From: Leucoraja erinacea
Taxonomy: Eukaryota
Assembly (NCBI RefSeq): GCF_028641065.1
Contig: NC_073382.1
Coordinates: 81,282,001 to 81,346,000, forward strand
DNA length: 64,000 nt
Direction of reading: 5' to 3'
Shown: in pieces, positions 13,113 through 61,229 of the stretch
Position numbering within the stretch: the first letter of the stretch is position 1
Layout: every line of letters starts with the position of its first letter
Notes under the pieces: generated by a model
The model's input: the letters and a program-made list of their open reading frames with translations, nothing else
Databases searched by the model: none
Told to the model about the DNA's origin: nothing
Translations under genes and position numbers: made by a program

Positions 13113-13256
13113 AATCAAGGGATATGTGGTACTGATTGTGGATGATCGGCGATGATCATATTGAATGGCGGTGCTGGCTCGAAGGGCCGAATGGCCTACT
13201 CCTGCACCCTATGTTCCATCACCATCCTATCTTCTCTTCTTCGTGCAGGGTTGAGT

Positions 13257-13457
13257 ATGGCGACTGACAGCCTCTCCAGTGCCTTCACTTTGTTTGAGAG
13301 CATCCAGCCTGGTCCCGTGTACCGCATCCCCTCTCTCCTCTACCTCAACAGCCACCAGGTCTTCCTGGCGTTTGCAGAGAAACGAACATCATCCTCCGAT
13401 GTGGACGCCAAGATTCTGGTTTTACGGAGAGGGAAGTTTCAAGATGGATCTGTGGAG
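13257..13457 (+). CDS. Sialidase (NEU3/NEU2-like) coding exon 1
   Basis: Acceptor TTCGTGCAG|13249, ATG 13257, YRIP motif, FLAFAEKR, LVLRRG. Phase-0 donor GAG|GTTGGT. Confidence 0.9.
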
Positions 13458-13766
13458 GTTGGTTTTGATTGATTGATTGATTGTCAGATACAGCACGGAA
13501 ACAGAGCCTTCGGCACACCGAATCTACGCCGACCATCGATCGCCCCGATCGCACTAGTTATATGTTATCCCACTTTCTCGTCCACATCCGAGATAGCGCC
13601 CAAACCAAGCGACTCTCAGTGTGCTGGTCAACATACAAGTCATGTTGTCACTTGCGGCCGGAGAACCAAGGCAAATTCCTTGTATGTGAATACTTGGCCA
13701 ATAAACTTCATATTCATTCATTCATTATAATCGCTCCACTCTTTAAAAACTTTACTTCAACAATAT

Positions 13767-15941: not shown

Positions 15942-16919
15942 TGGGACGAGTCAGTGGAGCTGAGTACTGCTGTGAAGAGCGGTTACCGTTCGATGAATCC
16001 TTGCCCTGTGTACGAGCGGATGAAGCAAGTGGTCTACCTCTTCTTTAACTGCGTGGAGGAGGGGGTGAACGAGTGCAGCCAGGTGCTGTGGGGCAGGAAC
16101 GCGGCCAGGCTGTGCTACGTGACGAGCCAGGACGCGGGGCTCACCTGGGGCCAGGTGACCGACCTGACGGAGAGTGTGATCGGCGAGGAGGTGCGGCATT
16201 GGGGCACCTTCTCCGTCAGCCCCGGCCACGGCATCCAGCGGGTGTGCGGCACGCTGATAGTGCCAGCCTACGCCTACATCATCCGCAATCGGTGCTGCCT
16301 GATACCGCCCGGCTTCTTCACCAAACCCCGCACCTTTTACCTGTACAGCGAGGACGGAGGTGAGCGCTGGAGTGTGGGCGAGCCAGTATCGCGGTGCGGG
16401 ACCGGGGAGAGCGAGATGGCGGAGATCACCGTGTCGTACGGTAACCGGGTGCTGTACTGTAACGCTCGGACCGTCGGCAGGCCCCTGTCGTGCCGCCGCC
16501 CGTCGCGAGTGGAAGCGGTCAGTTTGGAGCCCGGGCGATTCGAGATCGTTCACTCGGCCCGGCAGCTGCCCGAGAGCGACAGCGGCTGCCAGGGCAGTGT
16601 GCTCAGCTTCAGCTGCCCCGCCAGCGACCGGCTCTCCTGGCTCCTGTACGCCCACCCCGTCGGCAGCGGCAAGGACCGGTGGTGGAGACACTGCCGTAAC
16701 CGCACCAACCTGGCCTTTTACCTGAACCGCAGGCCCCTGGAGCAGCGCCACTGGGAGGGGCCCTGGGTAGTCCAGCCGGGGCCCAGCGGCTACTCAGACC
16801 TGGCCTACCTGGACCAGGCATCAACCTTCGCCTGCCTGCATGAGTGCGGTGATCGGCAACCCAACGAGAGGATCGACTTCCGTCTCTTCAGCATCGACGA
16901 CGTGCTGAGGAACATCTAG
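15942..16919 (+). CDS. Sialidase (NEU3/NEU2-like) coding exon 2; spliced protein 392 aa
   Basis: Acceptor CCCATTCACAG|TGG, in frame with exon 1. RSMNPCPVY, Asp boxes SQDAGLTW and SEDGGERW, PGHGIQ, YCNAR, GCQGS, catalytic SGYSDL and HECG. Stop TAG at 16917-16919. Confidence 0.92.
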   Translation, partial: WDESVELSTAVKSGYRSMNPCPVYERMKQVVYLFFNCVEEGVNECSQVLWGRNAARLCYVTSQDAGLTWGQVTDLTESVIGEEVRHWGTFSVSPGHGIQRVCGTLIVPAYAYIIRNRCCLIPPGFFTKPRTFYLYSEDGGERWSVGEPVSRCGTGESEMAEITVSYGNRVLYCNARTVGRPLSCRRPSRVEAVSLEPGRFEIVHSARQLPESDSGCQGSVLSFSCPASDRLSWLLYAHPVGSGKDRWWRHCRNRTNLAFYLNRRPLEQRHWEGPWVVQPGPSGYSDLAYLDQASTFACLHECGDRQPNERIDFRLFSIDDVLRNI

Positions 16920-43163: not shown

Positions 43164-43878
43164 ATACATGATTACAATCGAGTCATTCACAGTGTACAGA
43201 TACATGAGGAGGTAGTTGAGGCATGAACTATCACATTTAAAAGATACTTGGACAGGTACATGGCTAGGACAGGTTGACAGGTGTTTTTCCCAAATACGTC
43301 AGGTGGGACTGGTGTAGATGGGACATGTTGGTCGGTATGGGCAAGTTGGGCTGAAGGGCCAGTTTCTGCGCAGTATCATTCTGGAGTTCAGAAGGATGAG
43401 AGGGTATCATATTGAAACATATAAGATTGTTAAGGGCTTGGACACGCTAGAGGCAGGAAACATGTTCCCGATGTTGGGGGAGTCCAGAACCAGGGGCCAC
43501 AGTTTAAGTATAAGGGGTAAGCCATTTAGAACGGAGACGAGGAAACACTTTTTCTCACAGAGAGTTGTGAGTCTGTGGAATGCTCTGCCTCAGAGGCCGG
43601 TTCTCTGGATATTTTCAAGAGTGAGCTAGATAGGGCTCTTAAAGATAGCGGAGTCAGGGGATATGGGGAGAAGGCAGGAACGGGGTACTGATTGGGAATG
43701 ATCAGCCATGATCACATTGATTGGCGGTGCTGGCTCGAAGGGCCGAATGGCCGACTCCTACACCTCTTGTCTATTGTTTCTGCGCTATGACTACGAGTAT
43801 AATGAAGATGGGCCGAAGGGCCAGTTGAGTTGCAGTGTGACTGTGTTGTTGTGTCCACAGGTGCGTGTGGCCGGAGTG

Positions 43879-44448
43879 ATGGTGACCATCCGAGTGATGC
43901 TGCTGGGCAGTGAGCTGGTGGGCAAGACCTCGCTGGTGGTCTGCTTGACCACCCGCCTCTTCCCCCGTGACAGCCTGCCCACGGTCTTCGACTCCTTCAG
44001 CACGCAGCTGCGCCTGGGCGAGCGGACGGTGGTGCTGAACGTGTGGGACACGGCTTCGCAGGAGGAGCACCGCCTGTCCGTGCGCCAGTTCTACTACCCG
44101 CTGGCCGACATCTTCCTCATCTGCTTCTCCATCGGCGACCCCTCCTCCTTCGAGCGGGTGTGGGCCGACTGGTACCGCGAGGTGCGCCAGCACCGGCCCG
44201 ACGTGCCCGTGCTCCTGGTGGGCACCAAGAAGGACCTCCGGCAAGAACAGGCCGCCGCCGGCCAGCGCCAGGCCGCGCCCGTCTCCTACCAGCAGGGGGC
44301 CCGGCTGGCCCGCAGGATGAGGGCCGTCAAGTATCTGGAATGTTCCGCCCTGCAGCGGGAGGGGGTGGGCGAGGTCTTCGAAGAGGCCGCCAGGGCCGTC
44401 TTGAGGGGGGGGCGCTCCAAACGCACCCGATCCTGCGTGCTGACGTGA
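43879..44448 (+). CDS. RhoG-like small GTPase, atypical, 189 aa, single coding exon
   Basis: Acceptor GTGTCCACAG|43861, ATG 43879. GxxxVGKT, PTVFD, WDTA.QEE, LLVGTKKDLR, YLECSALQ and C-terminal RSCVLT; collinear with RhoG. Confidence 0.9.
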   Translation: MVTIRVMLLGSELVGKTSLVVCLTTRLFPRDSLPTVFDSFSTQLRLGERTVVLNVWDTASQEEHRLSVRQFYYPLADIFLICFSIGDPSSFERVWADWYREVRQHRPDVPVLLVGTKKDLRQEQAAAGQRQAAPVSYQQGARLARRMRAVKYLECSALQREGVGEVFEEAARAVLRGGRSKRTRSCVLT

Positions 44449-59480: not shown

Positions 59481-61074
59481 GTTCTTGGAAACTGCCTCCT
59501 CACTCATCCCTCCACCTCTTCCCTCTCTTTGCCTTGCTCACTCCCCACCTCCCTCCACCTTCCCTCCCCCCACACCCTCGCTCCCTCCCCTCTCCCCTCG
59601 CCCCTCACCTCCTCTCTGTGTCTATCCAAATTGGAAATGGTGCCAAGGTTTACGAGGATGTTGCCAGGACTCGAGGGGCCTGAGGTTGAGGGAGAGGTTG
59701 GGGGAGGGGTTGGGGGCAGGGAGAGGTTGGGGGCAGGCTGGCACTTTAATCAATGGAGGGCAGGAGGATGAGGGATGATGTTACAGAGGTGTATAAAATC
59801 ACGAGGGAAATAGATCAAAGGAATGAAAGAGTATTTTATTGTTACTTGTTCCAATTAAGGTACAGTGATACTCAATTTCAGGTAGATGCACAGAGTCACT
59901 TGCCAGTAGACAATAGGTGCAGGAGTAGGCCTTTCAGCCCTTCGAGCCAGCACCGCCATGCAATATGATCATGGCTGATCATCCCCAATCAGTACCCCCC
60001 GTTCCTGCCTTCTCCCCATATCCCCTGACTCTGCTATCTTTAAGAGCCCTATCTAGCTCTCTCTTGAAAGTATCCAGAGAACCGGCCTACACCGCCCTCT
60101 GAGGCAGCGAATTCCACAGATTTACAACTATGTGAAAAAGTTGTTTCCTCGTCTCCGTTCTAAATGGCTTTTCCCTTATTCTTAAACTGTGGTCCCTGAT
60201 TCTGGACTCCCCCAACATCGGGAACATGTTTCCTGCCTCTAGTGTGTCCAAACCCTTAATAATCTTATATGTTTCAATAAGAAACCCTCTCATCATAAAT
60301 TCCAGAGTGTACAAGCCCAGCCGTTCGATTCTCTCAGCATATGGCAGTCCCGCCACCTTGGGAATTAACCTTGTAAACCTACGCTGCACTCCCTCAATAG
60401 CAAGAATTGCCCATAGTAGGGGAATCGAGGACCAGAGGACATGGGTTTAAGGTGAGGGGGGAAAGAATTAATAGAAACCTGAGGGGTAATCTTTTCACAC
60501 AGGTGGTGGGTGTATGGAACAAGCTGCCAGAGGAGGTAGTTGAGGCTGGGACTATCACAATACTCTGTAATGTCTATAACAATATAACAATCTGAAGAAG
60601 GGTCTTGACCCAAAACGTCGCCTTTTTCCTTCACTCCATAGATGCTGCCTCACCCGCTGAGTTTCTCCAGCACTTTTGTCTACCCATAACAATATTTAAA
60701 ATATATTTGGACAGGTACATGGATTTATTTGGACAGGTTTAGAGGGATGTGGGCCAAACGCAGGCAGGTGGGACTAGTGTAGATTGGACATATTGGCCAG
60801 TGTGTGCAAGTTGGGCCGAAGGGCCTGTTTCCGCGCTGTATCACTCTGTGACTTGTTTACCGGTCACAGACTCATGGGGAGGACGATGTTTCAGGTCATT
60901 TCAGGATATTTTTAATGCAGCTATAGACAGATTCTTGATCAGTACGGGTGTCGGGGGTTATGGGGAGAAGGCAGGGGAATGGGGTTAGGGGGGAGAGATA
61001 GACCAGCCATGATTGAATGGCGGAGTAGACTTGATGGGCCGAATGGCCTAATTCTGCTGTTATCACTGGTGAAG

Positions 61075-61229
61075 GACGAGAGGGAGCAGGTTCTGACCAG
61101 TTACCTGTGGACGAGGCAGGAGTGGACAGATGAGCTCCATCGTTGGAACAAGAGCGACTACGATGGTCTAGAGACCATCCACGTCCCTGGCCGCTACCTG
61201 TGGAGACCCGACATCGTCCTGTACAACAG
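61075..61229 (+). CDS. nAChR alpha9/alpha10-like exon 3; gene continues beyond the window
   Basis: [44 protein letters not shown]; 155 nt, donor AG|GTGAGT. Confidence 0.9.

What the first reader, a model, noticed from the sequence alone, without database searches (positions are those of the whole stretch)
43879..44448. Atypical RhoG-like GTPase predicted to be hydrolysis-defective and differently prenylated
Seen (RhoG numbering): P-loop GSELVGKT (D11S, G12E), Y32S, DTASQ (G60S, Q61 kept), a one-residue insertion in switch II, a shortened insert helix and CAAX CVLT. The ORF is intact, with K16/T17/T35/D57, TKKD and CSAL conserved. Known: G12 substitutions block GAP-stimulated hydrolysis, atypical Rhos (RhoH, Rnd) are GTP-locked through changes at 12/59/61, and X=Leu favours geranylgeranylation while Thr favours farnesylation. 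Inference: an independently evolved atypical Rho with a substitution set unlike RhoH or Rnd.
Basis: partly seen in the sequence, partly recalled or inferred. Interest (0 to 1): 0.7.

Follow-up and report, generated by a model that had tools for sequence, protein, structure and literature searches.

The report
Atypical RhoG duplicate of cartilaginous fishes
Sharks, rays, skates and a chimaera share an intact extra copy of the cell-signalling switch gene RhoG in which two glycines needed to split GTP are replaced, so the protein is predicted to stay loaded with GTP and likely binds different partners from its parent gene.

Summary
The ORF (43879-44448, +, 189 aa) and every substitution listed are real. 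It is an intact RhoG paralogue about 160 kb from canonical RHOG, with orthologues in 21 named chondrichthyan species, including Callorhinchus. None was found outside that group. The orthologues form one clade inside RhoG (100/100), apart from RhoH, with a long stem and constrained G boxes.

G12 and G60 are lost in 24 of 24 sequences.

Best reading: a GAP-resistant, mostly GTP-bound atypical Rho whose rebuilt switch II likely no longer binds ELMO or RhoGDI. This is inferred from Rac3, KRAS and RhoG mutants; nothing was assayed. Farnesylation of CVLT is plausible but weakly supported. dN/dS was not obtained, and transcription evidence is thin.

Databases already call the gene 'RhoG-like'; three paper searches found no description of it. 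This scan noted the same gene in another genome (e1-8610734).

The parts
43840..43860 (+). Putative splice acceptor (T-rich tract ending in CAG) before the single coding exon; upstream exon not located
   Evidence: Sequence; both canonical RhoG paralogues of this genome have an acceptor-like site shortly before the ATG; no splice joint seen in reads, so inferred
43879..44448 (+). Coding exon of the atypical RhoG paralogue, 189 aa plus stop
   Evidence: the exact protein is already in NCBI/UniRef; AlphaFold2 model pLDDT 80.2, pTM 0.81, best fold matches RhoG
43906..43932 (+). P-loop GSELVGKTS: G12E, A13L, C18S; G10, G15, K16, T17 kept
   Evidence: E12 in 23 of 24 (A in Callorhinchus), L13 and S18 in 24 of 24
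43960..43998 (+). Switch I: F28, P34, T35, V36, F37, D38 kept; Y32S, N39S, Y40F
   Evidence: S32 in 24 of 24; T35 and D38 in 24 of 24
44047..44103 (+). G3 box and rebuilt switch II: G60S (P in most orthologues), A59 and Q61 kept, Y64H, one-residue insertion, R66 lost, R68 kept, T69Q, L70F, S71Y
   Evidence: residues 61-63 are modelled with pLDDT under 50
44224..44235 (+). G4 box TKKD (guanine binding), intact
44242..44277 (+). Rho insert region, three residues short in skates; full length in 20 of 24 orthologues
44341..44352 (+). G5 box CSAL, intact
   Evidence: C, S, A in 24 of 24
44404..44445 (+). Polybasic tail (net charge +5) and CaaX CVLT
   Evidence: X = Thr in 24 of 24 orthologues against Leu in 32 of 34 canonical RhoG
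61066..61227 (+). Exon of the nicotinic receptor-like gene that begins the block (receptor, NUP98, PGAP2-like) separating this gene from canonical RHOG; context, not part of the gene
   Evidence: Pfam Neur_chan_LBD, Nucleoporin2, Nup96, Frag1; canonical RHOG at G000:C6:81486414

Best explanation
This gene is a conserved, chondrichthyan-wide paralogue of RhoG, likely a local duplicate of RHOG, that has lost G12 and G60 and is predicted to sit on membranes mostly GTP-bound and GAP-resistant, likely signalling through partners other than ELMO. Shown: intact ORF, orthologues in sharks, rays, skates and a chimaera, position about 160 kb from RHOG, nesting in the RhoG clade, kept nucleotide and Mg-binding residues, rebuilt switch II, CaaX ending in Thr. 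Inferred, step by step: (1) it still binds GTP-Mg, because K16, T17, F28, T35, D57, S158 and A159 are invariant and the G4 box is nearly so; (2) bulky E12 and L13 block the GAP arginine finger, and P/S60 misplaces Q61 and removes the flexible gamma-phosphate sensor, so hydrolysis is very slow; L13 may fill the space left by Y32S; (3) loss of Y64, R66, L67 and L70 removes the ELMO and RhoGDI contacts; (4) CVLT is probably farnesylated and, with the basic tail, anchors it without GDI extraction; (5) as with Rnd and RhoH, activity would be set by expression and turnover, not by GEF/GAP cycling. The partner and tissue are unknown.
For: Residue states in 24 atypical against 34 canonical RhoG sequences; 23 positions are fixed (at least 90%) for different residues and cluster in the P-loop, its preceding strand and switch II. 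Clade support 100/100, stem 0.79 changes per column, inside RhoG at 98/99. Columns invariant in canonical RhoG are invariant in the clade in 51 of 91 cases, against 24 of 100 for variable columns (odds ratio 4.0, p 7e-6). Rac3 G12R and G60D strongly suppress hydrolysis, and G60D barely activates SRF or NF-kB reporters (PMC9473360, passages). In KRAS all G12 substitutions except Pro and all G13 substitutions except Ala/Ser transform, while G60 changes reduce G12D output and G12D/G60R loses PI3K binding (PMC11526993, passages). RhoG R66A does not bind ELMO2; V36, F37, Y64, L67 and L70 form the hydrophobic interface (PMC7351999, passages). The Ala-Tyr-Arg triplet of switch II is conserved in all RhoGDI-1 targets (PMC8253491, passages). 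Synteny.
Against: No biochemistry on this protein. Q61 is kept in 23 of 24 and A59 in 23 of 24, which could mean residual hydrolysis. The Callorhinchus orthologue has milder A12/A60 but also W56R and K116Q, so the state may differ between lineages. V36, F37, D38 and W56 of the effector surface are largely kept, and Rac3 G60D still binds some effectors. The position of the switch II insertion is an alignment choice; an Arg lies at 65 in 14 of 24 and could partly stand in for R66. The yeast FTase screen gives CVLT 1.06, CVIM 1.05 and CVLL 0.80, which does not discriminate. Transcription evidence is thin: one 530-nt contig in a run only guessed to be RNA, 3 reads in one RNA run, 0 in two others, no splice joint. 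The clade evolves faster than RHOG (Hypanus to Callorhinchus 60% against 86% identity). An origin from the second paralogue RHOG2 is not rejected (p-AU 0.158).
Confidence: 0.6

Rival explanations
1. Weak-binding or fast-exchanging pseudoGTPase: L13, S18, S32 and P60 together loosen the pocket, so the protein exchanges freely or has no nucleotide-dependent switch, and acts as a scaffold or as a trap for RhoG/Rac GEFs.
For: Changes surround the phosphates; Pro at 60 has no backbone NH for the gamma-phosphate (established G3 chemistry, recalled); Callorhinchus has K116Q, and Rac3 K116N and Y64C exchange fast; N39 is replaced in 24 of 24 and RAC1 N39S is a disease variant (its dominant-negative effect is recalled).
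Against: K16, T17, F28, T35, D57, S158 and A159 are invariant and D118 is kept in 23 of 24; Rac3 G60D slows exchange; the GEF-binding switch II is itself rebuilt.
Confidence: 0.18
2. Always-on RhoG: GTP-locked but still driving ELMO-DOCK-Rac, like a natural RhoG G12V.
For: G12E and A13L; V36, F37, D38, W56, R68 and P73 are mostly kept; best structural matches are RhoG-ELMO complexes, which reflects fold likeness only.
Against: R66, needed for ELMO2 binding, is S/A in 24 of 24; Y64H and L70F in 24 of 24, L67 replaced in 24 of 24; G60 changes blunt effector output.
Confidence: 0.1
3. A still-cycling GTPase with new specificity: Q61 remains catalytic, and a co-evolved GAP or intrinsic hydrolysis turns it off.
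For: Q61 in 23 of 24, A59 in 23 of 24, T35 and D57 invariant; the conserved new switch II could be a surface for a dedicated regulator.
Against: Both glycines are lost in 24 of 24; Narcine has R61 and Cetorhinus S59; single G12 or G60 changes already suppress hydrolysis in Rac3.
Confidence: 0.09
4. A decaying or relaxed duplicate without function.
For: Faster evolution than RHOG and a long Narcine branch; few RNA reads; dN/dS not obtained; protein databases hold mostly intact copies.
Against: Intact, same-length proteins in 21 named species spanning sharks, rays and a chimaera; constraint follows that of canonical RhoG; derived residues are fixed; skate differences fall only in the insert and tail.
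Confidence: 0.03

Closest known systems
RhoG (Rac subfamily, classical switch; human 6uka_A)
   Same: About 50% identity, same fold (TM 0.83 to 7y4a_A), single coding exon behind a 5' acceptor, same genomic block, nested in the RhoG clade.
   Different: G12E/A, A13L, C18S, Y32S, G60P/S/A, Y64H, switch II insertion, R66 lost, CaaX Thr instead of Leu.
RhoH (GTPase-deficient atypical Rho)
   Same: Predicted to work alike: GTP-bound, GAP-resistant; loss of G12, Y64 and R66 (RhoH has Phe and Ser at 64 and 66, PMC8253491 table).
   Different: Not a member: this genome has a separate RhoH-type gene (L006: V12, S59, G60, N61, no insert helix; the name RhoH is my recalled assignment). Grouping with it is rejected at p-AU 0.036. 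The new clade keeps Q61 and loses G60.
Rnd1-3 (GTPase-deficient, farnesylated)
   Same: Predicted constitutive GTP loading, no RhoGDI-1 binding, probable farnesylation.
   Different: Rnd3 has S12, S59, D61 by PMC9029563; here A59 and Q61 are kept and G60 is lost. No Rnd was in the trees; origin inside RhoG is shown positively.
RhoD, RhoF, RhoU, RhoV (fast-cycling atypical Rho)
   Same: RhoD is thought to be farnesylated and does not bind RhoGDI-1; its Thr-ending CaaX is recalled.
   Different: These keep the classical residues at 12, 59 and 61; here 12 is changed and F28 is kept.
Disease variants Rac3 G12R and G60D, KRAS G12D/G60R
   Same: Same positions changed; hydrolysis suppressed, effector output altered.
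   Different: Single pathogenic mutations in other proteins and to other residues; here the changes are combined, fixed and maintained across a vertebrate class.

Membership tests
Rho family small GTPase | Ras-type G domain with G1-G5 boxes, Rho insert and CaaX | tested here: met
   insert shortened by three residues in skates only
RhoG lineage (descent) | Nests within vertebrate RhoG in a tree | tested here: met
   98/99 in the 36-row tree, 99 SH-aLRT in the 71-row quick tree; Rnd, RhoD/F, RhoU/V and RhoBTB were not included
RhoG lineage (descent) | Sister to chondrichthyan RHOG rather than to RHOG2 | tested here: inconclusive
   With chondrichthyan RHOG p-AU 0.446 (no likelihood loss); with RHOG2 0.158; with ray-finned RhoG 0.041; synteny favours RHOG
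Classical RhoG (function) | G12, G60 and Q61 catalytic set | tested here: not met
   G12 0 of 24, G60 0 of 24, Q61 23 of 24
Classical RhoG (function) | ELMO-binding residues V36, F37, Y64, R66, L67, L70 | tested here: not met
   V36 and F37 kept in 23 of 24; Y64, R66, L67 and L70 in 0 of 24; binding itself not tested
Classical RhoG (function) | CaaX ending in Leu (geranylgeranyl) | tested here: not met
   Thr in 24 of 24; the lipid itself not tested
GTPase-deficient atypical Rho (Rnd, RhoH, RhoBTB) | Substitution at position 12 | tested here: met
   E in 23, A in 1 of 24
GTPase-deficient atypical Rho (Rnd, RhoH, RhoBTB) | Substitutions at 59 and 61 | tested here: not met
   A59 and Q61 each in 23 of 24; G60 is changed instead
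GTPase-deficient atypical Rho (Rnd, RhoH, RhoBTB) | No hydrolysis, GTP-bound in cells, refractory to GAP, GEF and GDI | not testable with these tools
   Inferred from mutants of Rac3, KRAS and RhoG
RhoH subfamily | Groups with RhoH; lacks the insert helix | tested here: not met
   p-AU 0.036 with one RhoH-type row, L006; insert present in 20 of 24
Fast-cycling atypical Rho (RhoD/F, RhoU/V) | Classical 12/59/61 with high intrinsic exchange | tested here: not met
   Position 12 changed; exchange rate not testable

The most novel reading that the evidence does not exclude
An undescribed vertebrate Rho subfamily, as old as the shark-chimaera split, that inactivates the switch by a route not used by Rnd, RhoH or RhoBTB. 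It drops both hinge glycines (12 and 60, mostly to Pro) while keeping A59 and Q61, swaps Y32 for L13, rebuilds switch II as a nucleotide-independent binding surface for a new partner, and changes its lipid anchor. Separate degenerate RhoG copies in percomorph fishes, salamanders and a frog suggest that RhoG repeatedly spawns such proteins.
Probability: 0.3. Interest if true: 0.68.

Novelty: new variant of a known kind. Interest (0 to 1): 0.5.

Why it matters
The vertebrate Rho family is usually treated as a closed set of about 20 genes with three GTPase-deficient subfamilies. This would be a further one, born from a classical member whose parent gene still lies beside it. That makes the conversion from switch to atypical Rho traceable residue by residue and testable with purified proteins. 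It also gives a natural, long-maintained example of G12 plus G60 substitution, positions otherwise known from cancer and developmental disease. Its reach is limited to cartilaginous fishes, and no phenotype or tissue is known.

Tried and rejected
Longer 246-aa ORF from 43708: rejected; its extra part lies upstream of the acceptor and the orthologues begin at the 43879 Met. Identity as RhoH: rejected. Skate-specific oddity or pseudogene: rejected. Retrocopy: unlikely, since an acceptor-like site precedes the ATG as in both canonical paralogues. Bony-vertebrate orthologues: none among the best 120 of 1451 hits of the profile search (only 7991 candidates scored), the best 150 of the full HMMER search, or by motif scan of all 325 proteins then held; relatives hidden in 50% clusters are not excluded. 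Common origin with the degenerate teleost or salamander copies: not seen in either tree; the union with ray-finned RhoG including the percomorph copies gave p-AU 0.041; the union with the salamander copies was not tested. No RNA holder was listed on record. Runs X14 and X18 laid 0 reads, which is no test. dN/dS was not obtained, because no orthologous DNA was in hand. The yeast FTase data did not discriminate CVLT from CVLL. The careful 71-row tree did not finish, so its quick version is cited. P0175, P0178, P0181 and P0182 (isoforms or partial models of genes already counted) were left out of the 24, and G_Rana out of the 34 canonical rows. PMC12490416, PMC7600811 and PMC9762944 (passages) added little. 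The complex predictor was not used.

Full report
Observation. Window 43879-44448 (+) is an open frame of 189 aa with a Pfam Ras match at E 1.4e-40. Its best solved-structure relative is human RhoG (6uka_A, E 4e-57), ahead of Rac1 (8e-50) and Cdc42 (6e-44). Third-position GC is 93% against 47% at second positions and about 50% in the flanks. A CAG acceptor ends 18 nt before the ATG, and both canonical RhoG paralogues of the genome have a similar site shortly before their ATG. An AlphaFold2 model built on 27 sequences has pLDDT 80.2 and pTM 0.81, with low confidence at 61-63, 123-130 and the tail. Its top Foldseek matches are RhoG chains (TM 0.83).

Distribution. A search with the protein gave 171 hits among 906 candidates. 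The top ten (56-99% identical) are one unnamed near-identical record and nine chondrichthyan proteins; canonical RhoG follows at about 49-53%. Cluster look-ups raised the set to 21 named species plus the window's protein and two unnamed records. The window's protein is 98% identical to the Amblyraja radiata orthologue, so the source is a skate. A profile search scored these proteins at 332-394 bits and canonical RhoG at 255 or less, with two longer invertebrate proteins in between (best 120 of 1451 shown). A full HMMER search of 1.84 billion representatives showed one single-domain member at 393.5 bits and the next at 248 (best 150 shown). A motif scan of all 325 proteins then held found the derived P-loop only in this group. 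So the gene looks restricted to chondrichthyans, within the limits of clustering. Databases name it 'RhoG-like', or 'member Gb' in three species.

Origin. In this genome the order is BCL7, a sialidase-like gene, WDR73, this gene (+), a nicotinic receptor-like gene, NUP98, a PGAP2-like (Frag1) gene, then canonical RHOG (-) about 160 kb away, followed by a TRPC-like channel. That human RHOG lies beside PGAP2, NUP98 and CHRNA10 is recalled, not tested. The genome also holds a second canonical paralogue (L002) and a RhoH-type gene (L006; name recalled). In a 36-row tree the six atypical rows form one clade (100/100) on a stem of 0.79 changes per column, inside RhoG (98/99), on the RHOG side at only 88/88. 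The 71-row quick tree agrees. AU tests gave: with RhoH p 0.036; with chondrichthyan RHOG 0.446 at no likelihood cost; with RHOG2 0.158; with ray-finned RhoG 0.041. Rnd, RhoD/F, RhoU/V and RhoBTB were not in the trees, and long branches are involved. The simplest reading is a local duplication of RHOG before the split of chimaeras and elasmobranchs.

Which changes are family features. I compared 24 atypical with 34 canonical RhoG sequences. Position 12 is E in 23 and A in Callorhinchus; 13 is L in 24; 18 is S in 24; 32 is S in 24; 39 is T, S or A; 60 is P in 20, S in 3 and A in 1; 61 is Q in 23 and R in Narcine; 64 is H in 24. The one-residue insertion is present in 24, R66 is S or A in 24, 70 is F and 71 is Y in 24, and the last residue is T in 24. 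K16, T17, F28, T35, D38, D57, R68, C157, S158 and A159 are invariant. K116 and D118 are each kept in 23. The insert helix is short only in three skates and Narcine.

Selection. dN/dS could not be computed. At protein level, 51 of 91 columns invariant in canonical RhoG are also invariant in the clade, against 24 of 100 other columns (odds ratio 4.0, p 7e-6; entropy correlation 0.44). Among nine elasmobranch representatives, identity is 93% in the P-loop, 85% in switch I, 86% in switch II and 53% in the insert. The two other skate-like proteins differ from the window's only in the insert and tail. The clade does evolve faster than RHOG (60% against 86% identity from Hypanus to Callorhinchus). 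The sequences are related, so these counts are not independent events.

Expression. No listed holder was on record as RNA. Of four runs laid on the gene, one gave a 530-nt contig at depth 7.5 in a run only guessed to be RNA, one RNA run gave 3 reads out of 8.7 million read (all of the orientation expected for a + strand transcript in a usual stranded library), and two gave none; no splice joint was seen. Several orthologues have multiple RefSeq accessions for one protein, and a Chiloscyllium isoform has an upstream in-frame extension. This suggests spliced transcript models, but that is inference. Transcription is probable, low or tissue-restricted, and not firmly shown.

Mechanism (inferred). 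Nucleotide and Mg contacts are kept, so GTP binding is likely. GAP catalysis needs G12 and a positioned Q61 (PMC8305018, passages). Rac3 G12R and G60D each strongly suppress hydrolysis; G60D also slows exchange and has marginal effects on SRF and none on NF-kB reporters (PMC9473360, passages). In KRAS nearly all G12 and G13 substitutions transform, G60S is moderately transforming, and second-site G60 changes reduce G12D output (PMC11526993, passages). RhoG binds ELMO2 through R66 and through V36, F37, Y64, L67 and L70, and R66A does not bind (PMC7351999, passages; W56 and T69 also matter, PMC10023680, passages). Four of those six residues are replaced in all 24 sequences. RhoGDI-1 targets share the Ala-Tyr-Arg triplet of switch II and are geranylgeranylated (PMC8253491, passages); this protein keeps only the Ala. 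CaaX motifs ending in L, F, M or I favour GGTase-I (PMC10320760, passages), so Thr makes farnesylation likely. The same paper's screen, however, scores CVLT 1.06, CVIM 1.05 and CVLL 0.80 (supplement rows), which does not separate them. I therefore favour a GTP-loaded, GAP-resistant, membrane-anchored Rho with a new partner (0.6), over a loose or fast-exchanging pseudoGTPase (0.18), an always-on ELMO activator (0.1), a still-cycling enzyme (0.09) or decay (0.03). The main result against the favoured reading is the retention of Q61 and A59.

Comparison and novelty. Known GTPase-deficient Rho proteins change 12, 59 and 61; fast-cycling ones keep all three (PMC9029563, passages). This clade changes 12, 13 and 60 and keeps 59 and 61. 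It is predicted to work like RhoH or Rnd but is a member of neither. Three paper searches found no description: RhoG, atypical Rho, cartilaginous, evolution (20 of 121 listed); RhoG, shark, Rho GTPase, paralog (5 of 5 listed); RhoG-like, chondrichthyan (0). I saw only listings for these, and subscription papers on Rho evolution are not covered. An unreviewed note of this scan describes the same gene from another genome (e1-8610734). It agrees with a reading I had recorded before seeing it and is not independent support.

Verdict. A real, conserved and apparently undescribed atypical RhoG paralogue of cartilaginous fishes: a new variant of a known kind, interest 0.5.

Noticed in passing
G000:C6:81486414-81486674 (-), L045:414-674: The canonical RHOG copy matches Amblyraja RhoG at 97% for codons 1-87, then runs into low-complexity sequence; its 3' half was not found in this assembly. 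Probably an assembly defect, since the Amblyraja protein is whole; not checked with reads.
   Followed up: partly
L031:867-1364 (+), gene starting near window 61066: The nicotinic receptor-like subunit beside NUP98 keeps the Cys-loop but lacks the vicinal Cys-Cys of loop C that the alpha-7 subunit has at the aligned place, so it may be a non-ligand-binding or divergent subunit at the position of CHRNA10 (position recalled).
   Followed up: partly
P0326, P0254, P0109, P0119 (percomorph-type); P0116, P0256 (salamanders); P0114 (bullfrog): Other degenerate RhoG copies with changes at 12, 59, 60 or 61 (for example S12 with S60/E61 in Epinephelus, S12 with P60 in Lissotriton) branch separately from the chondrichthyan clade.
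   Followed up: partly
P0012 (Callorhinchus orthologue): Carries A12, A60, W56R, K116Q and L160R and sits on a long branch; it may differ in nucleotide handling from the elasmobranch proteins.
   Followed up: no
window 35324-35397 (+): tRNA-Gln(CTG) in a CpG-rich stretch next to the likely first exon of WDR73.
   Followed up: no
L003 and L004 (G000:C26, about 20 kb apart): Two tandem intronless RhoA/B-like genes with near-identical 3' halves and divergent N- and C-termini.
   Followed up: no
window 15993-16919 (+): Large exon of a sialidase-like (BNR_2) gene, with a likely earlier exon near 13224-13472.
   Followed up: no
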